Source: an uncultured Kiritimatiellota bacterium | GTDB taxonomy: Bacteria; Verrucomicrobiota; Kiritimatiellia; RFP12; DVOR01 | Reading direction: 5' to 3' | Assembly: GCA_944389945.1 (NCBI GenBank) | Contig: CALXOF010000001.1 | Span: 3,016-67,015, forward strand | Length of the DNA: 64,000 bases | Part shown: positions 2 through 51,834 of the stretch, one piece after another | Numbering within the stretch: position 1 is the first letter of the stretch | Layout: each line of letters opens with the position of its first letter | The notes under the pieces: model-generated | What the model saw: the letters and a program-made list of their open reading frames with translations, nothing else | The model's database searches: none | Told to the model about the DNA's origin: nothing | Translations under genes and position numbers: made by a program

Positions 2-1054
2 CGCGAGGATGATGCCAAGAACGCCGAAGCGCAAATTGCAGAGGTCAAGAAGGTCCTTGCTAAGGGCAACGATGTTCTTGCTCGTTCCGTAGGCCAGACA
101 TCCTCGAAATCTAATTTCCAAGAGTTCGTTAGTGAGAGCACTAAATCGGAATCTGGTTTCCAAGAGGTCATTCGTACGCGCGTTGATGAGCTTAATCGGC
201 GTCAGAAGACTCCCACTGCCCAGCGCGTGCGTGGGCAGACCGCTCAGAATCTGCAGGAGGAGATGAACTACTCCTTTGAACGTTATATCAAAGATAAGAA
301 GTTGCCTGATAAACCGAACATCCCGCGTTTGGCTCGCCAGTTCGCCACCATTTATCACGTTTGTGACACCCTTGTGGATAACGGCACCATTCTGATTACC
401 GATGTCCAGCGTACGCGCTTTGACGGTGGCGCCGCCGAGGAAGAGGAAGAGACCACCACCCGCCGTCGTCGTTCCTCCCGCCGCAATGAGCCCGCGGAAG
501 CGACCACGTCCACCTATCCCTTGCCGGTCATCCAGGCCGCCGCGGAAGCGGATGGTGAGGGAACGGCGAAGACTGCGAAACCGGTCGACGTTGCCAAGGT
601 CGCCAAGGCCCTCAAGGACGACGGCGTGGTCTGTGAGAGCTACGCCATCACCTTCCGTGCGCCCTACGCCACCATCGCCAAGACCCTCAACGACTTCGCC
701 GCCGACGACCTCTTCATCGTCGTCACCGACCTCTCCATCACCAGCCAGAGCCTGGTCGAGACCAAGGCCGAAGAGCTCGTTCGCAAGCGCCGCACCATCC
801 GTGACTCCGCGCTCAATCGCGCCCGGGCCTCTGCCGAGAATGCCGCGCGCGCCGAGGAGCTCGCCAAGCGCGGACTCTTCGAGGGTGTCGCCGTCGACCA
901 GCGCCTCGTCTCCGACCCCGAGACCGCTGATCCTCTCCAGATTGTCCTCCGTTTCGACGTCTACACCGTCGAAGCTCCCAAGGCTGACGAAGCACCCGAC
1001 GCTCCCACGGCCCCTGAAGCCGGCGCGGCCGCACCCGAGAAGGAAGGGAACTGA
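2..1054 (+). CDS. Hypothetical protein, 5'-partial (open from window start); acidic/Arg-rich linker 'EEEEETTTRRRRSSRR', Ala/Pro-rich tail
   Basis: Frame of ORF 227..1054 stays open back to nt 2. Coding-like codon usage. Stop TGA at 1052-1054 is 2 nt before the next ATG, indicating translational coupling. Confidence 0.5.
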   Translation, partial: REDDAKNAEAQIAEVKKVLAKGNDVLARSVGQTSSKSNFQEFVSESTKSESGFQEVIRTRVDELNRRQKTPTAQRVRGQTAQNLQEEMNYSFERYIKDKKLPDKPNIPRLARQFATIYHVCDTLVDNGTILITDVQRTRFDGGAAEEEEETTTRRRRSSRRNEPAEATTSTYPLPVIQAAAEADGEGTAKTAKPVDVAKVAKALKDDGVVCESYAITFRAPYATIAKTLNDFAADDLFIVVTDLSITSQSLVETKAEELVRKRRTIRDSALNRARASAENAARAEELAKRGLFEGVAVDQRLVSDPETADPLQIVLRFDVYTVEAPKADEAPDAPTAPEAGAAAPEKEGN

Positions 1055-1056
1055 CC

Positions 1057-2325
1057 ATGGCCAAAGATCTTCCACCCATCCTGCGTCAATACGACCGCCT
1101 CATCGCTGTCGGCGTCTTGGCTGCCGTCGCAATCTCCTTGATTTACCTTGTTGTCTTCGGCATCAAGGCCAGGGACGATGAGGAGAAATTCAAGACCAGC
1201 GTCGCCGCGCCGGACAGCGAGGTGAAGCCCCTCGAGGACTTCTCCGCCCTCTCTGCGGCAATCGCCGCCGTTGGCAAGCCCGATCGTGCCTCCACCCTCA
1301 AGGTGCGCGCCTCCGCCGCGGAGCCCGACCTCTTCACCCCCGAGCGCCGCGTCTTCTGCATCAAGTGCGCCAGCCCCATCACCTTCGAGGGCGAGGACCG
1401 CGACGAGGCGCAGAAGTGCTCCATCTGCGGTGCCGATCAGCCCGTCAAGGAGAAGATCGACTACACCACCGTCGACAGCGACGAAGACGGCCTGCCCGAT
1501 GTCTGGGAGACCGCCAACAAGCTCGACCCCAACGACCCCGCCGACGCCGATGCCGACAACGACAGCGACGGCTTCACCAACATCCAGGAATACCAGGCCA
1601 AGACCGACCCCAACGACCCCAAGAGCCACCCCTCCTACGATGGCTTCCTCCGCGTGGGCGAAATCACCGGCACCAAGGTCCCCCTGCGCATCATCAACGC
1701 CATGCGCCTCCCCGATGAGACGGGCGCCGACGGCAAGCCGAACCAGGCCTACCGCGTGACCTTCGTCTCCGTCGCCGAAGACGGCACCCCCGGCACCGCG
1801 AACATCGTCGCCAAGACCGGCAAGCCCGTCTACAAGAGCAAGGGCGTCATCGAGACCAGTTCCGCAATCGGCAAGAGCGGTTTCTCTATCGTCAGCTACA
1901 ACCGTGTGGACAAGAAGCCCATCAAGGTTGGTCCGCATGGCACCACGCAGCTGATTGAGGTCTCCACCGCCGTTGTCAAGCGCGACTCCGATGGCAAGAC
2001 CGCCACCCTCACCCACTGGGATAGGAACAACCCTGATTGGCCCGGCGAGCCCCTCCTCGAGCAGAAGGTCGAGCTTTCCTGCGAGCTCTCCGGCGTTGAG
2101 CCCGCCACCCTCATCGAAGGCGGCACCTACCGCGTCAAGAGCGACACCTACGTCGTCAAGAAGATCAATCCCGACGCCAAGACCGTCACCCTGGTGCATC
2201 GCGCGGATAAGCGCGAGGTCGTCGTCGGCGAGTCTGGGCCGGTCGCGGCCGCCGCCAAGCCTGCGGCCGCCAAGCCCACCCCGGCCCCGGCCGCGGCTCA
2301 GCCTTCGGGAGGTCAGAAGAAATGA
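1057..2325 (+). CDS. Membrane-anchored protein with Cys4 zinc-ribbon (CIKC...CSIC) and thrombospondin-type-3/dockerin-like Ca-binding repeats (DSDEDGLPDVWE, DNDSDGFTNIQE)
   Basis: N-terminal TM helix 'LIAVGVLAAVAISLIYLVVFGI'. CxxC...CxxC motif. Repeated DxDxDGxxDxxE motifs. Ala/Pro-rich C-terminus. Coupled to the upstream gene. Confidence 0.6.
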   Translation: MAKDLPPILRQYDRLIAVGVLAAVAISLIYLVVFGIKARDDEEKFKTSVAAPDSEVKPLEDFSALSAAIAAVGKPDRASTLKVRASAAEPDLFTPERRVFCIKCASPITFEGEDRDEAQKCSICGADQPVKEKIDYTTVDSDEDGLPDVWETANKLDPNDPADADADNDSDGFTNIQEYQAKTDPNDPKSHPSYDGFLRVGEITGTKVPLRIINAMRLPDETGADGKPNQAYRVTFVSVAEDGTPGTANIVAKTGKPVYKSKGVIETSSAIGKSGFSIVSYNRVDKKPIKVGPHGTTQLIEVSTAVVKRDSDGKTATLTHWDRNNPDWPGEPLLEQKVELSCELSGVEPATLIEGGTYRVKSDTYVVKKINPDAKTVTLVHRADKREVVVGESGPVAAAAKPAAAKPTPAPAAAQPSGGQKK

Positions 2326-2475
2326 CCTCAACCCTTGATTTTGCGGGCTTCCAGCCCGTTGTCGTAGCCCCACGCGCAACCTTTGCCGCCAAGGGCAAAA
2401 CCGCAAAAAGCAATTTTTTCGCCACCGCCGGGTTACCCGGCTTGGCGAAAAAATAAGCCCGATGCGGTTTTTGAG

Positions 2476-2504
2476 TTGAAATAATCGTTGCGATGGGCTA
2501 TACT
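2476..2504 (+). promoter_or_regulatory. Sigma70-like promoter for the secretin gene (TTGAAA-17 nt-TATACT)
   Basis: TTGAAA at 2476-2481 and TATACT at 2499-2504 with a 17-nt spacer. GGAG Shine-Dalgarno at about 2541. ATG at 2558. Confidence 0.35.
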
Positions 2505-2557
2505 GACATCACGATTTGGATTTGGGCGAGGCCCAATAAAAGCGGAGAACACGTGCT

Positions 2558-5500
2558 ATGACACACTTTGTGCGCTATGCAATGGTCGGCGTGATGGTCG
2601 CCGGGGCGTCTTACTGCGCCCACGCGCAAGAAGATGACCTCGATGCGCTCTTGAGCGATTTGCTCGCCGAAGAGTCCGCCGTCGAGCAGGAGGAGCCTCA
2701 GGCCGAGCCGGCCCCTGAGGTCCCCGCCGAGCCCGAGGTCGCCGAACTTCCCGAGGCTCCCGCGCCAGAGGTCTTGGACGACGTGCCCGCGCCCGTTGTG
2801 GAAGCGGCCGACGAAGTGGCTGGGGAGGCGTTGGATGCCGCCCTCGACACGCTCGTCGATGAAGCCGAGACCCCCGCCGAGCCCGAAGTGCCCGCCCCTG
2901 TCGAGGAAGTCGCCGAGGTGGCCGAGGAGCCCGCGCCTGAGGTGCCCGCCCCCGCCCCCGTTGAGGAGGCCGTCGCTGAGGTGGTCGAGGAGCCCGCGCC
3001 CGAAGTCCCCGCCGAGGAAGTCGCCGAGATCCCCGCTGAGGTGCCTGCGCCTGAAGTTCCTGCCGAGGAAGTCGCTGAGGTTCCCGCTGAGGAGCCTGCG
3101 CCTGCCGCCCAAGCCGACGAAGCGGCTGGTGCTTTGCTGGCAGGTGTCGATGCCGAAGCCCCCGCCGTTGAGCTCTCCGAAGAGGACAAGGCTTTCAACG
3201 AACTCGAGGCGCTCATGCGCCTCAAGAATCTGGGCCTCGACAACCACGCCAAGGCTTGCCTCAACCGAGCCCGTGAAATCATGAGCACGCCGCCCGAGCC
3301 CGGCAAGGCCATGGATCACTACAAGGCCGCCATCAAGATGTACACCGACGCCAAGGAGTACTTCCGCGAGCTCGAGGCCAACCTCCCCCTCAAGGATGAG
3401 TGCGACCGCGGCATCCGCGAGGCTCGCTACCGTCAGGCCTTCTCCCTCTTCGCCAACGACAAGGATTACGGCGCCGCCCTCAACCTCGCCCAGCAGGTGC
3501 AGCGCGAAGGTCACCCCAAGGCCGCCGCCCTCATCGCCGCCATCAACGCTGAGGTCAATCGTCCGCCGGAAATCCGTCCCACCCCCGTTCTCCCCGAGTT
3601 CGCTCAAGAGGATTACCAGCAGGCCCGCCTCGACGTGATGGAGCGTTACAAGCGCGCCACCGTCTACTACCACCTCGCCAAGTACAAAGAGGCCATCGAC
3701 CAGCTCGACCTCATCCTCCGCGATGACCCCAACAACGAGGATGCCATCAGCCTCCGCGAGCGCATCGCCAAGCGCAAAGATAGCCGCGACCGTCAGCTCC
3801 AGGCCTCCACCCACGCCGAGATGATCGACCAGGTCTCCTTCAACTGGACCCCTGTCGGCGCTCTCGCCCGTGACTCCGAGGAGCTCTACGCGCCCACCGT
3901 CTCCACCGGTACCGCCGCCCCCGTCGACGAGCAGGGCCAGCGCGACGAGCAGGCCGTCATCGCCAAGCTCCAGTACATCCGCCTCCCCGAGTTCTCCATT
4001 CGCCCGCCGAGCACCCTCGCCGACGCCGTGCAGATGTTCGCCGAGATGTCCCGCACCTATGACCGTCCCGAGCTTCCTCCGGAAGAGCGCGGCCTCTCCT
4101 TCGTGCTGAACATGAACTCCGGCGCCCCCACTCCCGCCGCCGACGTCGAGGCCGATCCCTTCGCCACCACCGACACTTCCGCCTCCAGCGGCCTGCCGCC
4201 CATCCAGAACATCAGCCTCACCTGGGTCACCCTCAAAGAGGCGCTCGACATGGTCTGCATGGTCACCAACACCAAGTACATCGTCCGCGGCAAGAACGTC
4301 ATCGTCGTTCCCAACACCTTCGTTGAAGGTGAGATGGAGACCCGCACCTACAACGTCATGGGCGACCTGATGGACAAGGTCAGCGGCGTCCAGGCCGACC
4401 TCCAGGCCTCCTCCGACTTCGGTTCCTCCTCCGGCGACGACTGGGGTAGCATGGACACTGCCTCCCTCTCCTCCGGCGGCGGCTCCGCCACCCCCGATCA
4501 GCTGAAGAGCTTCTTCCAGGAGCTCGGCGTGCCCTTCGAGGGCGATGCGCGCATCGTTTACCTCCCCACCATCGGTAAGCTCCGCGTCACCAACACCGCC
4601 CAGAACCTCGCCATCTTCGAAGGCATCCTCGAAGAGCTCAACGTCACCCCCTATCAGATCGAGGTTGAGGCTCGCTTCGTCGAAGTCAGCCAGGAAGACC
4701 TCAACTCCCTCGGCTTCGAGTGGCAGCTCAATAGCGACATCGTCGGCACCATCGGTTCCGGCATCGACTGGGCTGACAGCGCCATCACCGGCAACCCCTC
4801 CGGCGGTTCTGGTGCGGGCGGCATCGGCGCCACCGGTGACCACGTCTTCCGTCCCGGCTCCATCAGCGGTACCGGCGATGGCAACGTTGCCATCCACGGA
4901 GGCTCCTTCAACAACGGCATGCGCTTCCTCGGTGACTCCTCCACCTACGCCAACCGCATCAACTTGAGCGGCGCCACCCTCGCCCCCAACGACGAGTTCC
5001 TCGGCTTCTCCGCCGTCTTCGGCCAGATGGATGTCTCCCTCATCCTCCATATGCTCGCCCAGCGCACCGACACCGACATGCTCTCCAGCCCGAAGGTGCT
5101 CGCCCGCCCGAACGAAGAGGCCCTCATCCGCGTCGTGACCGAGTGGATTTACCCCACCGAGTTCGACGTCACCGAGCTCGACAACGACGACAACAACGAC
5201 AACAACAACAACTGGGGCATCGGCAACGGCGGCACCACCGTCCAGGCCCCGCCCGTCAAGTTCGCCGTTGAGCCTCAGTCCTTCGAGAAGCAGGATGTCG
5301 GTGTCTCCCTCCAGGTCATCCCGCAGGTCTCCCAGGAAGGCCAGATGATCAACCTCACCGTCGCCCCCAAGGTCGTGGAATATCTCGGCGACTTCGAGTA
5401 CGGCATGCAGGTCCCCTACGTGCAGTACGGCATGACCGGTGGCGTCGTCACCTCCGCCGAGGTCGAGTACTACCAGGTCTCCATGCCTCAGCCCATGTTC

Positions 5501-5809
5501 CACTTCCGCGAGATCAACACCTCCCTCTCCGTCTACAACGGCTCCACCGTGGTCATGGGCGGTTTGATCACCGAGAACCGCAACTCCTTCGAGGATAAGA
5601 TTCCGATTCTGGGTGACCTGCCCTTCATCGGCTTCCTCTTCCGCTCCACCGGTGAGTACAGCGAGAAGCGCAACCTCCTCGTCTTCCTCACCGCCCGCCT
5701 CGTCGATCCCGCCGGCCGTCCCCTCAAGACCGCCACCGATGGTCGCATGGGTGCCGGCGCCATGAACACCAGCGCCTCCGACACCATGTCCTCCACCGTC
5801 CAGCCCTAA
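2558..5809 (+). CDS. Giant secretin (GspD/PilQ family) with N-terminal acidic PEVPA-type repeat region and TPR-like segment
   Basis: Signal peptide 'MVGVMVAGASYCAHA'. Approx. 2690-3120 encodes tandem (E/A)P(A/E)PEVPA repeats. TPR-like 'YYHLAKYKEAIDQLDLIL'. C-terminal secretin domain motifs 'VVMGGLITE...IPILGDLPFIGFLFRS...NLLVFLTARLV'. Confidence 0.85.
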   Translation: MTHFVRYAMVGVMVAGASYCAHAQEDDLDALLSDLLAEESAVEQEEPQAEPAPEVPAEPEVAELPEAPAPEVLDDVPAPVVEAADEVAGEALDAALDTLVDEAETPAEPEVPAPVEEVAEVAEEPAPEVPAPAPVEEAVAEVVEEPAPEVPAEEVAEIPAEVPAPEVPAEEVAEVPAEEPAPAAQADEAAGALLAGVDAEAPAVELSEEDKAFNELEALMRLKNLGLDNHAKACLNRAREIMSTPPEPGKAMDHYKAAIKMYTDAKEYFRELEANLPLKDECDRGIREARYRQAFSLFANDKDYGAALNLAQQVQREGHPKAAALIAAINAEVNRPPEIRPTPVLPEFAQEDYQQARLDVMERYKRATVYYHLAKYKEAIDQLDLILRDDPNNEDAISLRERIAKRKDSRDRQLQASTHAEMIDQVSFNWTPVGALARDSEELYAPTVSTGTAAPVDEQGQRDEQAVIAKLQYIRLPEFSIRPPSTLADAVQMFAEMSRTYDRPELPPEERGLSFVLNMNSGAPTPAADVEADPFATTDTSASSGLPPIQNISLTWVTLKEALDMVCMVTNTKYIVRGKNVIVVPNTFVEGEMETRTYNVMGDLMDKVSGVQADLQASSDFGSSSGDDWGSMDTASLSSGGGSATPDQLKSFFQELGVPFEGDARIVYLPTIGKLRVTNTAQNLAIFEGILEELNVTPYQIEVEARFVEVSQEDLNSLGFEWQLNSDIVGTIGSGIDWADSAITGNPSGGSGAGGIGATGDHVFRPGSISGTGDGNVAIHGGSFNNGMRFLGDSSTYANRINLSGATLAPNDEFLGFSAVFGQMDVSLILHMLAQRTDTDMLSSPKVLARPNEEALIRVVTEWIYPTEFDVTELDNDDNNDNNNNWGIGNGGTTVQAPPVKFAVEPQSFEKQDVGVSLQVIPQVSQEGQMINLTVAPKVVEYLGDFEYGMQVPYVQYGMTGGVVTSAEVEYYQVSMPQPMFHFREINTSLSVYNGSTVVMGGLITENRNSFEDKIPILGDLPFIGFLFRSTGEYSEKRNLLVFLTARLVDPAGRPLKTATDGRMGAGAMNTSASDTMSSTVQP

Positions 5810-5826
5810 ACGCGGCGAAACACACC

Positions 5827-5857
5827 AAAAAGCCCCGGCACCGCCGGGGCTTTTTTG
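5827..5857 (+). terminator. Rho-independent terminator after secretin
   Basis: Hairpin agccccggc-acc-gccggggct followed by TTTTTTG. Confidence 0.7.
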
Positions 5858-5902
5858 TTCTTCCCCACCGACTTTTCCTCCACCGCCAAAAGGGTCTCGG
5901 CG

Positions 5903-6009
5903 AAACCCTTAAGGGTCCGCCCTGAGACCCTATAGTGGTCCGAGGTCAACCACTATAGTGGTCGGGGTCGAGACCCTATAGTGGTCCAGGTCGAAACCCT
6001 TAAGGGTTC
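5903..6009. repeat. MITE-like palindrome array (copy 1): aacccttaagggt ends flanking 3 x gacc(c/a)ctatagtggtc
   Basis: Perfect 16-bp palindrome GACCACTATAGTGGTC and variants at a 24-25 bp period. Terminal 13-bp palindrome AACCCTTAAGGGT. Same element at 21688, 35648 and (variant) 51724. Confidence 0.8.
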
Positions 6010-6099
6010 TCTAGGGACGGCTCAAGCCTCCCCTTGGCAGTCCTGCGTGTGGTCAGTAGTGTCCGGGGAAATCGGCAAGCCTCCTTTTTCGCAAAAACG

Positions 6100-6370
6100 C
6101 CGGTGCGCGCGAAGCCAGATGGGCTAACGCCGGTCGCTTTGCGGGCTAAACGCCCGCTGATCGCTCCTTCCCGCCCATCGTCTTCGCGCTTGAAGGAGAG
6201 AAGGAGGGGTGTGGGGCAAAGCCCCTCCCCGACAAAACCAAACTTCCAAGCCTCCAAGCTTCTAAACTTCCTCATTTCCTTTTGGCGCAGGAAAGTGGGG
6301 CGCGGGAGGGCGCACGACTGTGCGCCCGGCGTTAGCGCCCCACCTTTCCTGCAAGATTTGCTTCTTTGCG
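6100..6370. repeat. Left arm of about 250-bp inverted repeat flanking the lipoprotein gene
   Basis: The stretch gccggtcgctttgcgggctaaacgcccgctgatcgctccttcccgcccatcgtcttcgcgcttgaagg...gcgcccggcgttagcgccccacctttcctgcaagatttgc reappears reverse-complemented at about 7205-7420. A related copy lies at about 12095-12215. Confidence 0.6.
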
Positions 6371-6408
6371 GTTCTTTCATTTTTCCGGATTGTATTGGCG
6401 GGGGCTTA

Positions 6409-6438
6409 CTTGACAGGGATGGGGAGGTGTGCTAGAGT
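6409..6438 (+). promoter_or_regulatory. Sigma70-like promoter (TTGACA-18 nt-TAGAGT) for lipoprotein gene
   Basis: TTGACA at 6409-6414 and TAGAGT at 6433-6438. AAGGAG ribosome-binding site at about 6511. Confidence 0.35.
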
Positions 6439-20165: not shown

Positions 20166-20713
20166 GACAATAGTGTAGCACATTGGAAGGTTGGAAGCTT
20201 GGAGGCTTGGAAGTTTGGCTTTGTTGGTGGGGCTCCGCCCCACACCCCAGCGGAGGAAGTTTGGAAGCTTGGCTTCTCCACGAAGACACGAAGGAGCGCA
20301 AGGGCCTGGGCACAAGGGGCGGCTTGCGCCGCCCCGGAGAACGGAAAACGGAGAACAGAGAACAGAGAGCGCGCGGCAAGCGCGCGATGGGCAAGGCGCT
20401 GTACAGGGCGGCGTCAGCCGCCGTCCTATTCCTCCTACCGCATCGTCTGAGGGCGGTTTTCTTGGGAAAGCGACAAGGCGCGAAGCGGAGGGCGACGGGC
20501 GCGGTCAGCGGCGGAGCCGCAGAGCGACCGATGGAGCCCGAAGCGGTTCGCGCCCCATAGCGTCTTTGCGGTTCGGCGGGGAGCTATTCCTCGGGAGGGG
20601 AGGGGGAATAAAACACGGGTATTAAAAATAAAACTTGCCCCCCCCTTGTGTTATGTTAGCATAATGGTGTTTTCGGACACCTCGCCCGAAGGAATTCAAG
20701 GATTGATGAAATC

Positions 20714-21687: not shown

Positions 21688-21795
21688 GACCCTTAAGGGT
21701 TTCGGGTCGGACCACTATAGGGTCTCGACCCCGACCACTATAGTGGTTGACCTCGGACCACTATAGGGTCTCAGGGCGAACCCTTAAGGGTCTCT
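21688..21795. repeat. MITE-like palindrome array (copy 2, inverted relative to copy 1)
   Basis: gacccttaagggtttc ... gaccactatagggtc ... gaccactatagtggtt ... gaccactatagggtc ... aacccttaagggtc. Confidence 0.8.
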
Positions 21796-21862
21796 CAGAG
21801 AGGGGGTGAGGACAACAAAAAAGGGAGGCTGAGGGCCTCCCTTTGGGTGAGTTGGCGCGGGG

Positions 21863-22000
21863 TTATTCCGCGGGGGCGAAGTCGGACTTGCCGACGCCGC
21901 AGGTGGGGCAGACCCAGTCATCGGGGAGCTGCTCGAAGGGGATGTTGTCGTTCTCGGCGGGGTCGTAGACGTAGCCGCAGACTTGGCAAACGTATTTCAT
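21863..22000 (-). CDS. Rubredoxin
   Basis: 45 aa '[45 protein letters not shown]' with two CxxCG motifs. Not present in the ORF track because it is under 60 aa. Confidence 0.85.
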
Positions 22001-23442: not shown

Positions 23443-23699
23443 AACCGTGGGAGCGGGGGTGTTGAGTGGGGAGAACGGAAAACGGAGAACGGAGAACGGA
23501 GAACAGAGAACGGAGCGTGCAGGCGCGAAGCGCCAAACCTTCCACGGCTACAGAACGCTCCTGCGGGGCGACGGTCAGGCCGTGTGCATTACTGTTTGCA
23601 GCCTTTGCTTTGCCATGCTGACCGAGGAATAATTTGGCGCCCGCTTGCCGGACGCATCTGTTCTCCGTTCTCTGTTCTCTGGGGCGGCAACGCCGCCCC

Positions 23700-27375: not shown

Positions 27376-27436
27376 GGCCTTATTATAGCATAGTGGGGCG
27401 CGTCAGCGCCTACTCACGGGGCGCGTCAGCGCCTAC

Positions 27437-28318
27437 TCACGGGGCGAGCCAGACGCGGCGGGCTTTGGCGTCGATGATGAGGTCGTTCATCTTGAGGAGG
27501 CTGTCAGCGCCGAGGATGGGTTCTTCGCCGGGGCGGAGGAGGGGTTCGAGGGTGAGGGTGTGGGTGCCGAGGCGGAGGGTGTCTTTTGCGCCGCGCTGGA
27601 GGGAGACGTTGGCGGCTTCGTTGACGCCGGTGGTGGTGAGGGCGGCTTCGCCTTCGGCGGCGGGCCAGCGCTCGCTGTCCATGAAGGTGAGGGAGGCGCC
27701 GGAGTCGAGGAGGACGGGGAAGGTGGTGGACTGGGCGTCGCCCGCGCGGCTGGCGACGAGGTGGAGGGAGTTGTCGCCGAGGGTCTGGAGCACGGGGAGC
27801 TCGGTGGCGCCGGTGAGGTCGGGCACGGAGGAATACCAGGTGACGGCGCGGTCGCGCAGGGAGAGGCGGAAGGGCGCGTAGGCGAGGGCGTTCATGCCCA
27901 GGATGCCGTCGATGCGGGTGCCGGCGGACTGGGCGAGGTGGCCGAGGGGAAGCGCCATGCCGACAAAACGCTTGAGCTCGGTCTCGCCGAGCTTGAGGGA
28001 GTGGATGGGGAAGGCGAGGGGGGCGGTCTCGACGTTGGTGTCGCCGCCGAGGGCGACGGGCTGGGTGGGGAGGTCCGGGAAGGTCTTGGCGAGGAAGTCG
28101 CGGTCCAGCGTGGTGTGGCTGGCGCCGGTGTCGAGGAGGAGGACGCAGGGCTTGCCGTTGAGGGTGGCCTGGACGGTCTGCAGGTTGTTGCCCGGCAGGA
28201 CGGTGAAGGTGAGGCGGTTGATGGGGACGCCGGCGACGGTGGGGGTGAAGAGCTCCTCCTGGGCGGGGAGGGCGGCGGCGAGGGCGAAGGCGGCGGCGAA
28301 GAGGAGGGTCAGTCGCAT
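27437..28318 (-). CDS. Secreted retropepsin-like aspartyl protease (two DTG/DSG lobes)
   Basis: Signal peptide. 'LLLDTGASHTTL' and 'VLLDSGASLTFM' active-site motifs. Confidence 0.7.
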   Translation of the reverse strand: MRLTLLFAAAFALAAALPAQEELFTPTVAGVPINRLTFTVLPGNNLQTVQATLNGKPCVLLLDTGASHTTLDRDFLAKTFPDLPTQPVALGGDTNVETAPLAFPIHSLKLGETELKRFVGMALPLGHLAQSAGTRIDGILGMNALAYAPFRLSLRDRAVTWYSSVPDLTGATELPVLQTLGDNSLHLVASRAGDAQSTTFPVLLDSGASLTFMDSERWPAAEGEAALTTTGVNEAANVSLQRGAKDTLRLGTHTLTLEPLLRPGEEPILGADSLLKMNDLIIDAKARRVWLAP

Positions 28319-32209: not shown

Positions 32210-32769
32210 AAGCACAATAGTATAGCACATCTCCCTCCGCTTTGCTTGCGCCCGATTTTCAAGAGGAAGTTTGGAGGCTTGGAAGTTTGGAGGCTTGGAG
32301 GAGCCACAGAGGTTGAGTCCCGGGCTGCCGCCCTTGGCGGCGATGAGAGCGGACGTTGCATGGCAAGCGCAGGACTGCCAGAATAGAGAAACCGCCGATT
32401 AGATTGGAAGTTTGGAAGCTTGGAGGTTTGGAAGTTTGGCTGGGCACACCAATTGTCTTGCTGAAGACTGCCAGAATGGGAAAACCGCCGATTACGCAGA
32501 TTAAAGCAGATTAGGGGCCGGCTACCGCCGGCAGGACTGCCAGAATAGGAAACCGCAGATTTCACAGATTTTGGGCAGATTAAGGGCGTGCTGGCGCACG
32601 CAGGACGCGCAATTGGAAGTTTAGAAGTTTGGAGGCTTGGAGGCTTGGCCTTTTTGCGGCTTACGCCGCCCTGTACAGCGCCTCGTCCATCGCCCGCTTG
32701 CGGGCGGTCCTGAATCTCCTGCATCTCCTGAATCTCCTGTTGGGCCATCTGAGGAGTGCGTCCCAAAGA

Positions 32770-32797
32770 AAAAGCCCCGCGGGGCGGGGCTTTTTGG
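32770..32797 (-). terminator. Terminator after PEP-CTERM gene (gccccgcggggcggggc + T-run)
   Basis: Identical hairpins also follow the PEP-CTERM genes ending at 33907 and 34814. Confidence 0.65.
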
Positions 32798-32812
32798 GGA
32801 TTGGGCGGGGGC

Positions 32813-33544
32813 TTAGGCCACGCGGCGGCGGAGGGCCACGCCGGCCACGCCCAGGGCGAGCAACGCCAGCGCCGTCGGCTCGGGGACGGAGGGATCTGGG
32901 TCGGAAGCTTCAGAGGCCGCAATCACTTGGTCGTAGGTCATCCCGGCCACGTAGTCGATGTCCATCGTGTAGGTATCCGCATTATTGTCCCACAGGTTCA
33001 TCCGCACATCGGTGCCGGAATCGCTCGTGCCCTGCTGCCCCCAGACGATGTGGGTCAGCGACTGGGTGGTGGTGTACGTGCCGTACAGGGTGCCGTCGAG
33101 GTAGAAGCTCAGCGTGTTGTTACCGTTCCAAGAGAGGACAAACTCATGGGTCGAGTTCGAGGTGAGCGTGACTTGTTCGCCAATCACCGACGGCGCGTCG
33201 CTCGCGGCCCCAAAGCCAATCGTGCCGCTGCTTTTGTCCGCGCAGTCGGCGTTGAACCGAATCGCCTGGCTGTTACCCTGGAAGGCGGCACCAATGATCG
33301 ACGGGTATTTCTGCCCACCGTTCGTGTAGGCGTTGATTGTTCCGGCGCTGAGGACGGCGGAGAGGGTCCATGAGCCGGAGCCAAGGTTGACCTGGTTCGA
33401 GCCAGTTCCGACGGTCATGGAACCGGAACTGGTCTTTGTGCCGAGGTCAACGTGGCCGGTGATCTTGTCCCAGTTGATGTTTGCCGCTTGGGTGGCGCCG
33501 AAGGCGAGTGCGGCGAGAGCGAGGGTGAGGAGTTTGCGTGTCAT
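32813..33544 (-). CDS. PEP-CTERM sorting-domain secreted protein (LamG-like)
   Basis: Signal peptide 'MTRKLLTLALAALAFGATQA'. C-terminal 'VPEPTALALLALGVAGVALRRRVA'. G9/C9 tract in the promoter at 33625-33633. Confidence 0.85.
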   Translation of the reverse strand: MTRKLLTLALAALAFGATQAANINWDKITGHVDLGTKTSSGSMTVGTGSNQVNLGSGSWTLSAVLSAGTINAYTNGGQKYPSIIGAAFQGNSQAIRFNADCADKSSGTIGFGAASDAPSVIGEQVTLTSNSTHEFVLSWNGNNTLSFYLDGTLYGTYTTTQSLTHIVWGQQGTSDSGTDVRMNLWDNNADTYTMDIDYVAGMTYDQVIAASEASDPDPSVPEPTALALLALGVAGVALRRRVA

Positions 33545-33865
33545 CTATGTCCCAACTTTCCGGTGTGTACACCTATCTTACAGGAAGGAATCCTGAAGAC
33601 TGTTTGCATATTAGCATAACTTTAGGGGGGGGGCAAGTGTTATTTAGAGGAAGCTTGGAAGTTTGGAGGCTTGGAAGTTTGGTTCTCGGGGAGGGGCGTT
33701 GCCCCACACCCTGCTTTTCTTCTTTAGAAAAGGTTGCAAGGCGCGAAACGGAGGGCGGCGGGCGCGGTCAGCGGCGAAGCCGCAGGGCGCCCGATGGAGC
33801 CCGAAGCGGTTCGCGCCCACAGTTGCGTCTTTGCGGTTCTCATTAATGGTGAGTGGGCAAAGAAA

Positions 33866-33893
33866 AAGCCCCGCGGGAGCGGGGCTTTTTGGG
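33866..33893 (-). terminator. Terminator after PEP-CTERM gene
   Basis: aaaaagccccgcgggagcggggcttttt. Confidence 0.65.
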
Positions 33894-33906
33894 GATTGGC
33901 GGGGGC

Positions 33907-34602
33907 TTAGGCCACGCGGCGGCGGAGGGCCACGCCGGCCACGCCAAGGGCGAGCAACGCCAAGGCCGTCGGCTCGGGGACGGAAGGATCCGGGTCGGGT
34001 TCCGGCAGGACAGCGGTCATCTGGGCGACCATGCGATCAATCTCCTCTTGGGTGAGGATGCCTTCATAGGCCGCCGTCTCATTGATGGTCCAGGCATCGT
34101 TCGCGAAGGTGGAGACAATGATATTTTCGGACGTGTTCGTATCCAAGACGGAGAAGAGCTGCACACCATTCGCGTAGCCGGTGATGGTGGCTTGATTGTT
34201 CGCGTTGCGCTCAATCGTGATGGTGAGCAGGTATTTCGTACCGACCGAAAGGGTTGGGGTATTGCTTGTGGTTCCCCAGCCAGTCTCAGAACCACCCTTC
34301 TTTTCCACGCCGATATGGCCATTGAGGGCATTCCCGGAGCCATACATATAGGCATAGGCGTGTCCGGCATCCCAGAGGCCGAGATCTGCGATGGCGGCTT
34401 GTTCTGTGCTGGCAGCCGTCGCATTCGCGGTCACCACCATGGCATAGGAGAGCGTTTTGGTGGAGGTAGAACCTTCCGTGGCGAAGTATTTATCGGTGTA
34501 GATGCTGTTCTCGGCTCCGGTTTGCCACTGCATGGTGACAGCCTGGGCGGAGAGGGCGAGGCCGGCGGCGGCACAAGCCAAGGCAAAACGTACGCATTTC
34601 AT
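33907..34602 (-). CDS. PEP-CTERM sorting-domain secreted protein
   Basis: Start at Met160 of track ORF 33907..35079 ('MKCVRFALACAAAGLALSAQA'). PEP-CTERM tail. G8 tract at 34680-34687 upstream. Confidence 0.8.
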   Translation of the reverse strand: MKCVRFALACAAAGLALSAQAVTMQWQTGAENSIYTDKYFATEGSTSTKTLSYAMVVTANATAASTEQAAIADLGLWDAGHAYAYMYGSGNALNGHIGVEKKGGSETGWGTTSNTPTLSVGTKYLLTITIERNANNQATITGYANGVQLFSVLDTNTSENIIVSTFANDAWTINETAAYEGILTQEEIDRMVAQMTAVLPEPDPDPSVPEPTALALLALGVAGVALRRRVA

Positions 34603-34768
34603 GGGTGTGTCCTTCGTCCCACGGGGGGCAGGACATCTGCCCGATTCACATGGAACGCCATTAAGATAGCACAAGTGACGGGGGGGGCAAGTGTTATTTA
34701 TTGTGTCAAGGCGCAACAAGGGAAGATTGGGGGCTTGGAAGGTTGGTTTCAAGCGGAGAATGGCAAAG

Positions 34769-34797
34769 AAAAAGCCCCGCGGGGGCGGGGCTTTTTG
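34769..34797 (-). terminator. Terminator after PEP-CTERM gene
   Basis: aaaaagccccgcgggggcggggcttttt. Confidence 0.65.
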
Positions 34798-34813
34798 GGG
34801 GATGGGCGGGGGC

Positions 34814-35491
34814 TTAGGCCACGCGGCGGCGGAGGGCCACGCCGGCCACGCCGAGGGCGAGCAACGCCAGGGCGGTCGGCTCAGGGATGTTGGTCGGCAT
34901 AATCGCGGATCCCGCGTCAACCAGCTTGGTGATCTCATCCGTGGTGAGGGTGCCATCATAAGTGGCCGCATCGTTGAAGGTCCACGCGGCATTGTTGGCG
35001 AAGGTCGCCGTGAGGGCGCCATCGGTGGGCTCAAGGATGGGATTGGCGTTGCCATTGAACGTAATTGGGGTCGTCCCATTGTTGATATAGAGCGTCACGT
35101 TCCAACGGTTGTTGGTGGAATCCCAGGTGCCATTGATCACCACGATGTGCGAGCCGGACGCAAGCGAACTATTGTTGTCCGTCCAAGTCGTAGCGTTAGA
35201 AGTCGTACTGTCGAAGTGGGCGCCAAAGCCATTCGCGGCGGAATAGGCCAAGAGACCGACAGCAGTGTCATCTCGCGTGGAGGTCCCGAAGGTCACCATG
35301 CTGGAGTTCTCGAGAGACTGGCCGGAGAAGGTCGTCGTGATCTTCACGGCGAGGGCGAAGTCGGCCTTCGCGTCACTCGAGCCGAAGATTTCCTGCGAGC
35401 CAGGGACGGTCGTGCTGCTCCAGGTCATATTCGCGGCGGAGGCAACCGTCGCCAGGCCAAGGGCCGCAATCAATCCAAGACAACGTTTCAT
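34814..35491 (-). CDS. PEP-CTERM sorting-domain secreted protein (LamG-like)
   Basis: Signal peptide 'MKRCLGLIAALGLATVASA'. PEP-CTERM tail. TTGACG-N18-TATTAT promoter with a G9 spacer tract (plus-strand C9 at 35573-35581). Confidence 0.85.
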   Translation of the reverse strand: MKRCLGLIAALGLATVASAANMTWSSTTVPGSQEIFGSSDAKADFALAVKITTTFSGQSLENSSMVTFGTSTRDDTAVGLLAYSAANGFGAHFDSTTSNATTWTDNNSSLASGSHIVVINGTWDSTNNRWNVTLYINNGTTPITFNGNANPILEPTDGALTATFANNAAWTFNDAATYDGTLTTDEITKLVDAGSAIMPTNIPEPTALALLALGVAGVALRRRVA

Positions 35492-35647: not shown

Positions 35648-35754
35648 GAAACCCTTAAGGGTCCGCGGTGAGACCCTATAGTGGTCGGAGGTCAACCACT
35701 ATAGTGGTCGGGGTCGAGACCCTATAGTGGTCCGACCCGAAACCCTTAAGGGTC
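35648..35754. repeat. MITE-like palindrome array (copy 3)
   Basis: aacccttaagggtc ... gaccctatagtggtc ... gaccactatagtggtc ... gaccctatagtggtc ... aacccttaagggtc. Confidence 0.8.
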
Positions 35755-36037
35755 GGCTGACGCCGCCCCTGGAGAACGGAAAACGGAGCGTGTAGGCGCG
35801 AAGCGCCAAACCTTCCACGGCCACGGAGAACAGAGAACGCCCCTTTGGGGCGACCGGCGAAGCCATTGTACAAAGCGGCGAAGCCGCCGTCCTATAGGTC
35901 CTATATGTCCTACCGCGATGCCTATTGGCACGTCGCAGACGTGCCGGGGGTGCAGGGAGAACTTCTCCCTGCCGGGGGGTGGGGCAGCGCCCCACATTCT
36001 TCCAATCTTCCATTCTTCCAATCAGCTAATCAGCCAA

Positions 36038-36997: not shown

Positions 36998-37939
36998 GGG
37001 GAGATTATAACAAAGGAGAACGGAAAACGGAGAACGGAGAACGGAACGCGCGGCAAGCGCGCGACGGGTGAGGGCGCTGGGAGGGCGTGGAAGGTTTGCC
37101 CTGCGGGGCTGACACGAAGGTGCACGAAGGACAAGGGGCGCTGACGCGCCCCGGAGAACGGAGCGTGCAGGCGCGAAGCGCCAAACCTTCCACGGCCACA
37201 GAGAACGGAGAACAGAACGCCCCTGCGGGGCGACGGGTGGAGTGGTGTGCCAGGGCTTCTCGGTCTCATCGCCGCCAAGGGCGGCGGTCCAGGCTTCAAC
37301 CTCTGTGGCTCCTCCAAGCCTCCAAGCTTCTAAACTTCCAAGCTTCCCATAGCCCCTGCACCCCCGGCACGTCTGCGACGTGCCAGAAGGACGACGAGGT
37401 AGGACATATAGGACATATAGGACCTATAGGACGGGGCTACGCCGGAGGACTCCCCAAAACCAAAGCGTGGCGTACGAAGCCCGCCATGCTCCTACAGGCC
37501 CCCGGGCCGGACGTGCGCCTTGCGCGCACGCACGGCCCGCCTTCAGCGTCGCCTTTCTTTGTGTCCTTTGTGAGACCTTGTGTCCTTTGTGATAAATCCA
37601 CACTAGCAGTCCTGCGTGCGCTAGCACGCCCTTAATCTGCAACAAATCTGTGAAATCTGCGGTTCCCCTGCGTCGTGCTCTTAGCCGTGGAAGGTTTGGC
37701 GCTTCGCGCCTGCACGGTGTCTCTTTGTGGTCCTTCGTGTTCTTTGTGATAGCCGCGCAGCGTTCGGTCTCATCGCCGCCAGGGGCGGCGGCCCGGGCTT
37801 TCACCTCTGCGGCTCCTCCAAGCCTCTAAACTTCCAAACTTTCAAGCTTCTACGGGGGCGCTTTGCGCCCCCGTAAGCGGCGCGACGGCACAAAAAAAGG
37901 CCCCCGGATGGGGGGCCTTTTGTGCCGAGTCAGCGACGC
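36998..37939. repeat. Mosaic repeat block (heptad GAGAACG tracts, gcgcgcggcaagcgcgcg hairpin, ggtctcatcgccgccaagggcggcgg module, cacg..ctagcacgcccttaatctgc module)
   Basis: All modules recur elsewhere in the window in different orders (see findings). Confidence 0.7.
37893..37920 (-). terminator. Terminator after gap
   Basis: Minus strand: ggccccccatccgggggcc followed by T7. Confidence 0.7.
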
Positions 37940-39722
<1,783 letters not shown>

Positions 39723-51612: not shown

Positions 51613-51662
51613 CAATGGGACAAGAGAAGGGGCGCCCTCAGGCGCGCCTCTTCTCTTTTTTT
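51613..51662 (+). terminator. Probable terminator after rpsT
   Basis: GC hairpin ggggcgccctcaggcgcgcc followed by tcttctcttttttt. Confidence 0.5.
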
Positions 51663-51723: not shown

Positions 51724-51834
51724 AGACCCTATAGGGGTCGGCCCCGAGACCCTATAGTGGTCCGGGTTGAGACCCTATAGTGGTCCGGGTTGAGACCCTA
51801 TAGTGGTCCACTGCGAGACCCTATAGTGGTCCGG
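51724..51834. repeat. Palindrome array (copy 4, variant): five gaccctatagtggtc units at a regular 24-bp period, without the aacccttaagggt ends
   Basis: Units begin at about 51724, 51747, 51771, 51795 and 51819. Spacers of 9 nt are ggccccgag, cgggttgag, cgggttgag, cactgcgag. Confidence 0.8.

What the first reader, a model, noticed from the sequence alone, without database searches (positions are those of the whole stretch)
5903..6009. MITE-like palindrome-array element family (4 copies in window)
The element is about 107 bp. Its ends are the 13-bp palindrome AACCCTTAAGGGT. Inside are three GACC(C/A)CTATAGTGGTC palindromes at a 24-25 bp period. Copies lie at 5903-6009, 21688-21795 (inverted) and 35648-35754. 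A variant at 51724-51834 has five units at a strict 24-bp period and no terminal palindromes. Evenly phased 16-bp palindromes resemble iteron/operator or centromere-like arrays (e.g. parS-like sites) as much as MITEs, so they could serve as binding-site arrays for a dimeric HTH protein.
Basis: seen in the sequence. Interest (0 to 1): 0.55.

Follow-up and report, generated by a model that had tools for sequence, protein, structure and literature searches.

The report
Dispersed hairpin-palindrome arrays between genes
Short non-coding arrays of 2-7 head-to-tail copies of a 14-16-bp hairpin-forming palindrome lie between ordinary genes in one lineage of uncultured Kiritimatiellia; they look like a lineage-specific cousin of the REP/BIME repeats of other bacteria, not a classical MITE or a gene-specific operator, and their function is not shown.

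Summary
All four arrays are at the stated coordinates and far exceed chance (11-12 motif hits against 0.02-0.03 expected). Corrections: the common unit is the 15-nt GACCCTATAGTGGTC, only the central unit has 16 nt, and the period is 22-24 bp (a strict 23 bp in the variant). The "terminal" AACCCTTAAGGGT palindromes are units in the same register.

The window is chromosomal DNA of an uncultured Kiritimatiellia. I found 37 arrays in related genomes, none of them inside a predicted gene. Relatives whose secretin is 79% identical or less had none in about 23 kb each.

A roughly 110-bp composite recurs at 14-21 sites with unrelated flanks. It shows no target-site duplication, and no transposase was found nearby. 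One orthologous site carries 5, 2 or at least 4 units in three lineages.

Within arrays the palindromes almost never decay, whereas the 7-8-nt spacers vary freely. No compensatory stem changes were seen. That points to sequence-specific recognition.

Best reading (0.42): REP/BIME-like repeats, spread by an unidentified trans-acting DNA enzyme and resized by slippage. A host protein-binding array is not excluded.

The arrays are one family among more than ten intergenic short-repeat families in this genome.

The parts
5904..6008 (+). Array copy 1. Five units in a 22/22/24/23-bp register: TTAA unit 5904-5917, F unit 5926-5940, S unit 5948-5963, F unit 5972-5986, TTAA unit 5995-6008. A degenerate outer module CCAAAAGGGTC lies at about 5889-5899.
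   Evidence: Folds into one long hairpin: z -6.8 and -7.7 (RNA, the two strands) and -6.5 (DNA).
21688..21792 (-). Array copy 2, the reverse complement of copy 1. Units at 21688-21701, 21710-21724, 21733-21748, 21756-21770 and 21779-21792.
   Evidence: (I3 and I4, 93-94% complementary to copies 3 and 1). Identical in another strain (L044).
35650..35754 (+). Array copy 3. Units at 35650-35663, 35672-35686, 35694-35709, 35718-35732 and 35741-35754.
   Evidence: (D5, 90% to copy 1).
51725..51831 (+). Array copy 4. Five head-to-tail F-type units at a strict 23-bp period, without TTAA units. Two adjacent spacers are identical (cgggttga), which suggests local unit duplication.
   Evidence: TRF: period 23, 4.8 copies. 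Identical in strains L049-L053.
5827..5855 (+). Context: terminator-like hairpin of the secretin gene (2558-5809), 48 nt upstream of copy 1.
21820..21844 (-). Context: terminator-like hairpin of a 45-aa rubredoxin gene (about 21863-22000, minus strand). It ends 27 nt before copy 2 on that strand.
51622..51657 (+). Context: terminator-like hairpin of rpsT (ends 51572), 67 nt upstream of copy 4.
35838..35852 (-). Context: terminator-like hairpin after the GT2 gene (36038-36997, minus strand). Copy 3 lies between it and a promoter-like site at 35591-35562 for the PEP-CTERM gene.

Best explanation
These are REP/BIME-like selfish or semi-domesticated repeats: a lineage-specific family of repetitive extragenic palindromic units arranged as short, mostly head-to-tail arrays.

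Shown:
- Each unit is a GC-rich 4-6-bp inverted repeat (GACC(C)/(G)GGTC) around an A/T-only centre. The commonest form carries one unpaired T.
- Units recur every 22-24 bp, separated by variable 7-8-nt linkers.
- A composite of about 110 bp (TTAA unit or hairpin, F, S, F, TTAA unit) has been copied to many unrelated intergenic sites.
- Arrays gain and lose units in place.

Inferred mechanism:
- The palindrome is read sequence-specifically by a trans-acting DNA enzyme, most likely as a single-strand hairpin.
- The enzyme would be a RAYT/IS200-type HUH nuclease or a dRS3-type recombinase, encoded elsewhere in the genome.
- That enzyme copies or converts the composite into the gene-free zone between a terminator and the next promoter.
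- Hairpin-promoted slippage or unequal exchange between the near-identical units then changes the unit number.
- No benefit to the host is required.
For: 1. Repetitive, extragenic and palindromic, which is the operational REP definition (PMC3116915). 37 arrays with about 150 units were found, and none lies inside a predicted gene.
2. Restricted lineage. Arrays occur in the window species, in the sister MAG BRZ_EK_bin27 and in the L037 lineage. They are absent from about 23 kb each of four relatives whose secretin is 62-79% identical.
3. Dispersal of a composite. 14-21 copies share an 84-nt core that is almost invariant, spacers CGAGGTC and GGGGTCGA included. Their flanks are unrelated.
4. No target-site duplication, as expected for HUH-type single-strand transposition.
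5. Hairpin potential is far above shuffled controls on both strands.
6. The commonest unit has an unpaired T. For E. coli REP, a mismatch bulge in the stem is essential for RAYT binding (PMC3479197).
7. Interior units almost never decay: 3 of 120 intervals skip a unit. By contrast, 95 spacers have 51 different sequences. No compensatory stem changes were seen, which points to sequence-specific recognition rather than structure alone.
8. Turnover in place. The site downstream of galK has 5 units in L035, 2 in L037 and at least 4 locally homogenised units in L007.
9. Placement just after gene ends and terminator-like hairpins in the four window copies.
Against: - No RAYT, Y1 or any other transposase was found. 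This covers 40 window proteins and 581 kb of held sequence, searched with tblastn queries written from memory and with a motif scan. It also covers 30 ORFs next to arrays. These are weak tests, because only a fraction of the genome is held.
- There is no conserved GTAG 5' of the hairpin.
- Units are 15-16 nt, shorter than the 20-60 nt given for REPs in PMC3116915, which puts the stems at the lower limit for stable hairpins.
- Arrays are head-to-tail (F:R about 62:5 after orienting each array by its majority), not alternating as in BIMEs.
- No insertion/empty-site pair was found, so mobility is inferred only from the dispersed near-identical copies.
- The same data fit recognition by a host DNA-binding protein.
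Confidence: 0.42

Rival explanations
1. Double-stranded binding platforms for a lineage-specific, sequence-specific host protein. Candidates are a Noc/ParB-like protein, a nucleoid-associated protein or a roadblock protein. It would coat 2-7 adjacent sites after gene ends and act as an insulator, a transcription roadblock or a chromosome-organising site.
For: - Palindromes are invariant while spacers are free, without compensatory changes.
- Spacing is regular at 22-24 bp.
- Unit sequences are identical in two lineages that are only about 90-95% identical in coding DNA.
- One site is kept in three lineages.
- All four window copies lie between a terminator-like hairpin and the next promoter or gene.
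Against: - The outer half-sites GACC and GGTC lie 6, 7 or 8 bp apart in the 14-, 15- and 16-bp units. The asymmetric 15-mer is the commonest. A rigid symmetric dimer should not tolerate that.
- In the canonical copies the spacers are as conserved as the sites, which indicates copying rather than selection on each site.
- An array present in one strain lineage is absent from the orthologous intergenic region of another.
- No arrays were found in more distant relatives.
- There is no candidate protein.
Confidence: 0.22
2. A plain minisatellite. The arrays arise and spread only by slippage, unequal crossing-over and ectopic recombination within the repeat-rich intergenic mosaic, and nothing recognises the palindrome.
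For: - Unit number varies at an orthologous site.
- Locally identical spacers suggest unit duplication (copy 4, L007, L026).
- Degenerate units lie at the array edges, as expected when homogenisation is strongest in the centre.
- The genome is full of other short tandem arrays.
Against: - Neutral arrays should decay evenly across the 23-bp unit. Here 14-16 positions stay fixed while 7-8 positions vary freely.
- The same composite, with the same spacers, sits at 14-21 unrelated sites.
Confidence: 0.13
3. An RNA-level element. The arrays are transcribed as strings of small hairpins that stabilise 3' ends, back up terminators, or form a small RNA.
For: - Strong folding z-scores.
- Placement just downstream of genes.
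- Linkers are G-rich on the F strand.
- REP and ERIC elements are reported to act at the mRNA level (REP and mRNA turnover: PMC3479197; ERIC from my own knowledge).
Against: - Copies 1, 2 and 4 lie after a strong terminator-like hairpin with a T-run, so they should be little transcribed.
- Copy 3 is antisense to the local transcription direction.
- Orientation relative to neighbouring genes is mixed.
- The predicted fold differs from copy to copy, and there is no covariation.
- No Rfam family matches.
Confidence: 0.1
4. A classical MITE: a deletion derivative of a DDE-type insertion sequence, with terminal inverted repeats, cut and pasted by the parent transposase.
For: - TTAA-centred palindromes at both ends of copies 1-3.
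- Inward-facing CCCC-AAAA-GGGG(TC)-TTTC modules on both flanks of many copies.
- Size of about 110-160 bp and a long-hairpin fold.
Against: - No target-site duplication at any boundary (observed count no higher than the shuffled-pair control).
- The ends are fuzzy and variable.
- Copy 4 and many arrays in the sister MAG lack the end units.
- Unit number changes in place.
- No IS with matching ends was found in any sequence held.
Confidence: 0.06

Closest known systems
REP / BIME / REPIN elements with their RAYT (TnpA-REP) nuclease (Enterobacteria, Pseudomonas; PMC3479197, PMC3116915)
   Same: - Repetitive, extragenic, imperfect palindromic units that occur singly and in clusters.
- Clusters of up to 12 are reported in Pseudomonas fluorescens.
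- An unpaired base or mismatch in the stem.
- A composite that folds into a long hairpin.
- No target-site duplication.
- Lineage-specific sequence.
- Placement after gene ends.
   Different: - Units are 15-16 nt, against the 20-60 nt given for REPs.
- There is no 5' GTAG.
- Units are mostly head-to-tail with 7-8-nt linkers, not REP/iREP inverted pairs.
- No RAYT was found, though this was only partly testable.
Neisserial intergenic mosaic elements (NIMEs) with dRS3 repeats ATTCCC-N8-GGGAAT (PMC1797815)
   Same: - Short GC-armed inverted repeats reiterated in non-coding arrays.
- Arrays differ in repeat number and length between strains.
- Arrays are embedded in highly mosaic intergenic DNA that is exchanged wholesale between strains.
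- For NIMEs, recognition by a site-specific recombinase has been proposed.
   Different: - dRS3 copies are separated by 50-150-bp RS elements of more than 100 families. Here the linkers are 7-8 nt.
- No phage or recombinase link is known here.
MIRU-type dispersed minisatellites (VNTR loci) of Mycobacterium. Characterised from my own knowledge; only located papers.
   Same: One repeat family sits at many intergenic loci as short tandem arrays whose unit number differs between lineages.
   Different: - MIRU units are about 40-100 bp and are not palindromic.
- They often carry small ORFs in phase with the flanking genes.
- A 23-bp period cannot stay in a reading frame.
ERIC, Correia and RUP-type MITEs (Correia and RUP are named in PMC3479197; ERIC from my own knowledge)
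   Same: Imperfect palindromic intergenic elements of about 100-150 bp, with inverted ends and a long hairpin fold.
   Different: - Those have defined ends.
- Correia and RUP have target-site duplications and a plausible parent transposase.
- They are not built from a reiterated 23-bp unit.
Iteron, operator and centromere arrays, for example F sopC (43-bp repeats each holding a 16-bp palindrome) and plasmid origin iterons (from my own knowledge; one example seen in L043)
   Same: Reiterated short (often palindromic) sites at about 20-43-bp spacing that are bound by a specific protein.
   Different: - Those occur at a single locus next to their rep, par or regulator gene.
- Here dozens of arrays lie beside unrelated housekeeping genes.

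Membership tests
REP / REPIN | Repetitive and over-represented short sequence | tested here: met
   11-12 hits in the window against 0.02-0.03 expected. 37 arrays and about 150 units in the related loci held.
REP / REPIN | Extragenic placement | tested here: met
   None of the 37 arrays lies inside a gene predicted from third-codon-position GC. The gene calls are crude.
REP / REPIN | Imperfect palindromic core able to form a stem-loop | tested here: met
   GACC(C)-TATA-(G)(T)GGTC read directly from the sequence. Arrays fold well beyond shuffled controls.
REP / REPIN | Hundreds of copies per genome | tested here: inconclusive
   - 4 arrays (20 units) in 64 kb.
- 1-2 arrays per 23 kb in loci that were not chosen for arrays (L035, L037).
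- No complete genome is held.
REP / REPIN | Conserved 5' GTAG tetranucleotide at the hairpin foot | tested here: not met
   The bases 5' of F units are nnGA (TCGA, GTGA, CTGA). No GTAG occurs on either strand.
REP / REPIN | Cognate RAYT (HUH Y1) gene in the genome, flanked by the repeats | tested here: inconclusive
   - No hit in 581 kb held, using tblastn queries written from memory and an HUH...YxxNP motif scan.
- No Y1_Tnp among 40 window proteins.
- None among the 25 of 26 families listed for 30 array-adjacent ORFs.
- Most of the genome was not available.
REPIN | Two REPs in inverted orientation form the replicative hairpin unit | tested here: inconclusive
   - The canonical 107-nt copy folds into one long hairpin.
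- That is possible only because every unit is itself nearly palindromic.
- By the position of the unpaired T, the units are head-to-tail.
- The predicted folds differ between copies.
BIME | Alternating REP/iREP orientation with defined linker types | tested here: not met
   After orienting each array by its majority, 62 units are F and 5 are R. About 10 of 37 arrays contain any unit in the opposite orientation.
MITE (TIR type) | Target-site duplication flanking each copy | tested here: not met
   14 canonical copies were tested at all boundary offsets from 0 to 74 nt and for k = 2-8. The observed maximum was never above the shuffled-pair control.
MITE (TIR type) | Defined terminal inverted repeats | tested here: inconclusive
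   - TTAA palindromes are at both ends in copies 1-3 and L017.
- Inward-facing CCCC-AAAA-GGGG-TC-TTTC modules are present in many copies.
- The ends vary, and they are missing in copy 4 and other arrays.
MITE (TIR type) | Parent IS with matching ends | tested here: inconclusive
   None was found in the window or in any locus held. The whole genome was not searched.
MIRU-like VNTR | Tandem unit number differs between lineages at the same locus | tested here: met
   Downstream of galK: L035 has 5 units, L037 has 2 and L007 has at least 4. Strains of the same species are identical at copies 2 and 4.
NIME / dRS3 | Short inverted repeats separating diverse 50-150-bp RS elements | tested here: not met
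   The linkers are 7-8 nt.
Iteron / operator / parS-type array | One or few loci, next to the cognate rep, par or regulator gene | tested here: not met
   The neighbours are a secretin, rubredoxin and an ABC ATPase, PEP-CTERM and GT2 genes, and rpsT. The 30 array-adjacent ORFs in the sister MAG are unrelated housekeeping or defence genes.
Any Rfam RNA family | Covariance-model match | tested here: not met
   There were 0 matches at gathering score over the window. Around copy 4 there were only chance-level matches, with E 0.3-1.

The most novel reading that the evidence does not exclude
The palindrome arrays, and perhaps the whole grammar of 'GC hairpin + 3-5 short tandem units' that fills this lineage's long intergenic regions, are working parts of the host rather than junk.

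In this reading they are docking arrays for one or several lineage-specific nucleic-acid-binding proteins. Those proteins would mark the dead zone between a terminator and the next promoter. They could act as transcription roadblocks or insulators, or as recombination sites that let intergenic cassettes be swapped between strains.

That would be a modular non-coding code not described in bacteria.
Probability: 0.12. Interest if true: 0.75.

Novelty: new variant of a known kind. Interest (0 to 1): 0.42.

Why it matters
Nothing in the searched paper library describes intergenic repeats in Kiritimatiellota, and the unit sequence appears in no paper there. The composite has no match in the plasmid or phage collections or in Rfam.

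If the REP-like reading holds, this extends hairpin-based non-autonomous repeats to the PVC group in an unusual form: very short units in head-to-tail arrays.

Practical consequences:
- The arrays and their sister repeat families may explain why this organism assembles into fragments.
- They offer strain-typing (VNTR) markers.
- They are sites at which intergenic regions differ between strains, in one case replaced wholesale.

If a host protein reads the arrays instead, that would define a new chromosomal site system in an uncultured gut lineage.

Tried and rejected
As written it matched only the central units, so I corrected it.
2. **Known RNA.** Rfam gave nothing at gathering score or in E-value mode.
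3. **One conserved RNA or DNA fold.** The predicted structures differ among 15 copies because every unit can pair with every other. I therefore dropped covariation modelling and built no covariance model.
4. **Target-site duplication.** None was found.
5. **Transposase or RAYT.** This is a weak negative.
6. **A fixed link to terminators.** It holds for the window copies but not for most arrays in the sister MAG, judged with a strict home-made scan.
7. **Orientation rule relative to genes.** There is none, for the arrays or for the short-repeat modules.
8. **SD-like, CsrA-like or rut-like reading of the other short tandem repeats.** I considered it, but no strand bias supports it.
9. **Cross-phylum 'homologues'.**
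   - 22-23-bp arrays containing CTATAGTGGTC occur in Bacteroidia MAGs, Thiomargarita and metagenome contigs.
   - One viral contig looks like an iteron-type replication origin.
   - The number of such hits is compatible with chance among the many tandem arrays of period 21-25, and their neighbours gave no shared protein.
   - I treat them as unrelated.
10. **Resemblance to phage promoters.** The reverse unit GACCACTATAGGGTC resembles the T7/SP6 promoter core. This comes from memory only and has no supporting context, so I rejected it.
11. **Empty-site comparison.** Downstream of the secretin the whole intergenic region is replaced in sister strains, so no precise insertion boundary could be read.
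12. **Plasmid, phage and literature searches.** No match.

Full report
**1. The observation**

Reading the four places shows the described arrays.
- The common unit is the 15-nt imperfect palindrome GACCCTATAGTGGTC. I call it F, and its reverse complement GACCACTATAGGGTC is R.
- The central unit of copies 1-3 is the 16-nt AACCACTATAGTGGTC, which I call S.
- The 'terminal' AACCCTTAAGGGT(C/T) palindromes lie in the same register.

Unit starts in copy 1 are 5904, 5926, 5948, 5972 and 5995, giving steps of 22, 22, 24 and 23 bp. Copy 4 has starts at 51725, 51748, 51771, 51794 and 51817, a strict 23-bp period.

The motifs are far beyond chance:
- 11 hits against 0.02 expected for the F unit.
- 12 hits against 0.03 expected for the TTAA unit.
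- Copies 1-3 are 90-94% identical over 113-125 nt.

**2. Where the window comes from**

The window has about 64% G+C. It carries housekeeping genes:
- a type II/IV secretin, SMC, rpsT, rpsP, rplS, trmD, infA and GAPDH;
- folP, a cdaA-type diadenylate cyclase, and several PEP-CTERM proteins.

The secretin is identical to a protein on metagenome contigs (L035 and L036). Its more distant homologues are labelled Kiritimatiellia.

A scan of one genome per species found the array pattern in at least 29 loci of a single MAG, 'uncultured Kiritimatiellaeota BRZ_EK_bin27'. One locus of the MAG (L007) is 90-95% identical to window 190-4464, so the MAG is a sister lineage of the window organism.

**3. The family**

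In the window, the MAG loci and the loci of close strains I found 37 distinct arrays.
- Three of these are single units. The rest have 3-7 units by the looser unit definition. The stricter TATA-only motif gives 2-7.
- Steps between units are 22 bp (36 times), 23 bp (63) and 24 bp (18). Only three steps of 44-45 bp show a unit that has decayed.
- None of the arrays lies inside a gene predicted from third-position G+C.
- Within arrays the asymmetric units point the same way: 62 F against 5 R after orienting each array by its majority. About 10 of the 37 arrays contain a unit of the opposite sense.

Unit variants keep GC-rich arms and an A/T-only centre. Examples are GACCCTATAAGGGTC, GACCCTTATAGGGTC, GACCCCTATAGTGGTC, GACCCTATAGGGGTC and AACCCTTAAGGGTC.

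Beyond the TTAA units the register continues into degenerate palindromes of the type CCCC-AAAA-GGGG(TC)-TTTC. These face inward on both sides.

**4. A dispersed composite**

- An anchor on the S unit found 21 copies. A stricter full-core pattern found 14. I aligned 15 of them (A2).
- The shared core is GA-F-CGAGGTC-S-GGGGTCGA-F-sGGGTCGA-AACCCTTAAGGGTC.
- In that alignment 57 columns are invariant and 17 nearly so, almost all within an 84-nt core. The spacers are as conserved as the units.
- The flanks are unrelated.
- This holds across the window lineage and the sister MAG.

The composite has therefore been copied between sites, or is being homogenised between them. It did not arise independently at each site.

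**5. Mobility tests**

- No target-site duplication of 2-8 bp appears at any pair of boundary offsets. The observed count never exceeds the control in which left and right flanks of different copies are paired.
- No transposase domain is present among 40 window proteins.
- None is present among the 25 of 26 Pfam families listed for 30 ORFs that neighbour arrays in the MAG.
Nor did a scan for the HUH...Y-x-x-NP motif.
- These negatives are weak, because most of the genome is not in hand.
- Plasmid and phage collections have no match. The viral scan found only an unrelated contig whose repeats look like a replication origin with iterons.

**6. Comparison of orthologous sites**

*Downstream of galK.* The site lies between two convergent terminator-like hairpins.
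- L035 (the window lineage) has F-R-S-R-TTAA.
- L037 (secretin 90% identical) has only R'-TTAA. The difference is a 65-bp indel, about three units.
- L007 (the sister MAG) appears, by position and flanking sequence, to be the same site. It has at least four R units with the same spacer, tcacaccc.
- The site is therefore old, and the unit number changes in place.

*Downstream of the secretin.* L035 and L036 carry copy 1. In L037 and L038 everything after the terminator is replaced by other repeat modules. No clean empty site could be read there.

*Within the species.* Strains have identical arrays at copies 2 and 4.

*More distant relatives.* Relatives with a secretin 62-79% identical have no arrays in about 23 kb each. 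One of them (L042) has three CCC(C)TT(T)AGGGTT motifs after the secretin gene, a possible precursor.

**7. Structure**

- The 121-nt copy 1 folds into a single long hairpin centred on S, on either strand. The z-scores are -6.8 and -7.7 as RNA and -6.5 as DNA.
- Copy 4 folds as a string of hairpins, with z -5.3.
- The predicted fold differs from copy to copy, because all units can pair with each other.
- No stem position shows compensatory change.
- What is conserved is sequence. Interior units almost never decay, whereas 95 spacers have 51 different sequences and carry little information per position.

A neutral 23-bp minisatellite would decay evenly. A purely structural hairpin would show covariation. 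The pattern therefore points to sequence-specific recognition of the palindrome, or to homogenisation confined to it.

**8. Position**

- Copy 1 follows the secretin terminator-like hairpin at 5827-5855.
- Copy 2 follows that of a 45-aa rubredoxin gene, at 21844-21820 on the minus strand.
- Copy 4 follows that of rpsT at 51622-51657.
- Copy 3 lies between a terminator-like hairpin after the GT2 gene and a promoter-like site for the next gene, and is antisense to both.
- In the MAG, arrays tend to lie nearer the upstream gene's end than the downstream gene's start. A strict terminator scan found a hairpin with a T-run within 200 nt for only a minority.
- Orientation relative to neighbouring genes is mixed.

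Placement after terminators and mixed orientation argue against an RNA role.

**9. Explanation**

The features fit the operational definition of REP sequences, namely repetitive, extragenic and palindromic (PMC3116915).

They also fit several properties of the REP/RAYT system:
- an imperfect stem whose irregularity is essential for binding by the RAYT nuclease (PMC3479197);
- no target-site duplication;
- lineage specificity;
- clusters of variable size.

They differ in these ways:
- the units are very short;
- there is no GTAG;
- the order is head-to-tail;
- no RAYT has been seen so far.

The variable spacing of the outer half-sites (6, 7 or 8 bp) and the dominance of the asymmetric unit are easier to reconcile with a hairpin, where the change is an extra pair, a bulge or a mismatch. 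A symmetric dimer on duplex DNA fits less well.

I therefore favour a REP/BIME-like element, at 0.42. It would be recognised as a hairpin by a trans-acting DNA enzyme, dispersed as a composite of about 110 bp, and resized by slippage.

The dRS3 repeats of neisserial NIME arrays are the second closest analogue (PMC1797815). They are short GC-armed inverted repeats, in arrays that vary between strains, and are proposed recombinase targets.

Rival readings:
- a host protein-binding platform (0.22);
- a plain minisatellite (0.13);
- an RNA element (0.10);
- a classical MITE (0.06).

**10. Context that matters**

The arrays are one family among many.
- Intergenic DNA makes up 25% of the window.
- Dispersed repeats of at least 40 bp and at least 75% identity cover 52-59% of that intergenic DNA, against about 3% of genic DNA.
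- Tandem Repeats Finder lists more than ten families of 7-10-bp units in 3-5 copies: GGAGAAC, TTGGARGN, TAGGACNTA, CACAAAGGA, CAGGAGATW, CTCCTGCAT, GCTGATTR, AAATCTGCG, CACGAAGGNN and GTGTTCCTCT. They usually lie next to GC-rich hairpins and occur in both orientations.
- Palindrome arrays directly abut such modules. Copy 4 is followed by a hairpin and (GGAGAAC)n. L005 and L011 are preceded by (CAATCAGC)n or (GTTCTCC)n plus a hairpin.

Any final explanation should account for this whole mosaic.

**11. Novelty and score**

I found no paper on intergenic repeats in Kiritimatiellota, and the unit does not occur in the searched literature.

I rate the arrays a new variant of a known kind, the REP/BIME/NIME-type interspersed palindromic repeats. 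My interest score is 0.42. The family is real, abundant and unusual in architecture, but its mechanism is inferred and its kind is familiar.

Noticed in passing
window intergenic regions, e.g. 20183-20218, 23470-23515, 37400-37432, 39049-39083, 42397-42434, 50751-50784, 51859-51888, 52193-52225: More than ten families of 7-10-bp units occur in 3-5 tandem copies. They are GGAGAAC, TTGGARGN, TAGGACNTA, CACAAAGGA, CAGGAGATW, CTCCTGCAT, GCTGATTR, AAATCTGCG, CACGAAGGNN and GTGTTCCTCT. They usually lie next to GC-rich hairpins and occur in both orientations. Many carry GGA, GGAG or GGAGG on one strand. Dispersed repeats make up 52-59% of intergenic DNA, against about 3% of genic DNA.
   Followed up: partly
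window 51890-51906 (-) and 35838-35852 (-): GC hairpins followed by the heptamer array (GTTCTCY)n are scored as terminator-like sites. Some 'hairpin + heptamer' modules may act as terminators with an imperfect U-tract.
   Followed up: no
window 5856-6428 compared with L037 13210-13900 and L038 13240-13556: In sister strains whose secretin is 90-97% identical, the whole intergenic region after the secretin terminator is replaced by a different set of repeat modules. L035 also has two extra genes there compared with L036.
   Followed up: partly
window 6057-6378: An intergenic element of about 315 bp, containing an octamer array, is 82-92% identical to stretches in three loci of the sister MAG (L006, L026, L031). 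It ends about 30 bp upstream of a promoter-like site at 6410-6438.
   Followed up: no
window 39083-39270 / 52381-52568 and 50866-50996 / 52007-52137: Long inverted repeats lie between distant intergenic regions: 188 nt at 90% and 131 nt at 98% complementarity. They are larger composite repeat elements built from the short modules.
   Followed up: no
window 32764-32904, 33858-33998, 34765-34905: A 141-nt direct repeat (80-90% identity) recurs at the 3' ends of the PEP-CTERM protein genes at 32813-33544 and 34814-35491, both on the minus strand. A third copy overlaps the 3' end of the ORF 33907-35079 (minus strand), which I did not scan. The first gene also has a weak LamG-like match.
   Followed up: no
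window 27395-27446: A perfect 23-bp tandem repeat, GGGGCGCGTCAGCGCCTACTCAC x 2.3, has the same period as the palindrome arrays but an unrelated sequence. It lies mostly between the ribD-like gene and the aspartyl-protease-like gene.
   Followed up: no
L001 2939-2970; L009 525-556 and L010 7786-7817; L028 2529-2708; L057, L060, L064, L066, L067: Unrelated genomes also carry 22-23-bp-period arrays of TATA-centred palindromes containing CTATAGTGGTC. They include Bacteroidia MAGs, a Thiomargarita MAG and a set of 59%-GC metagenome contigs. One array lies downstream of a PEP-carboxykinase-like ORF in L009. The number of hits is compatible with chance, but the likeness extends beyond the searched bases.
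   Followed up: partly
L043 1300-1620: A viral contig has imperfect direct repeats (CTCTATAGTGGTCG-like) beside a GATC cluster, a DnaA-box-like GTGGATAA and a 338-aa ORF. It looks like a plasmid- or phage-type replication origin with iterons.
   Followed up: no
window 21863-22000 (-): A 45-aa rubredoxin gene is missed by any ORF list with a 100-aa cut-off. It is the true upstream neighbour of copy 2.
   Followed up: yes
L046-L048, L055-L056: Several metagenome contigs carrying window genes are only 1.2-1.8 kb long and end just outside the gene. This would be expected if the intergenic repeats break short-read assemblies.
   Followed up: no
window 2987-3122: The secretin gene contains a 51-bp coding repeat in 2.3-2.7 copies. 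Homologues differ in length there: many cover only 82-86% of the query.
   Followed up: no
L017, L019, L020 and L034, upstream of their arrays: A shared module, GC hairpin + TACCTTATTATATA (followed by GCAGAT in three of the four), lies about 65-90 nt upstream of four canonical arrays in the sister MAG. A reverse-complement copy lies next to the array in L030. Its A/T-rich box could be a promoter element.
   Followed up: no
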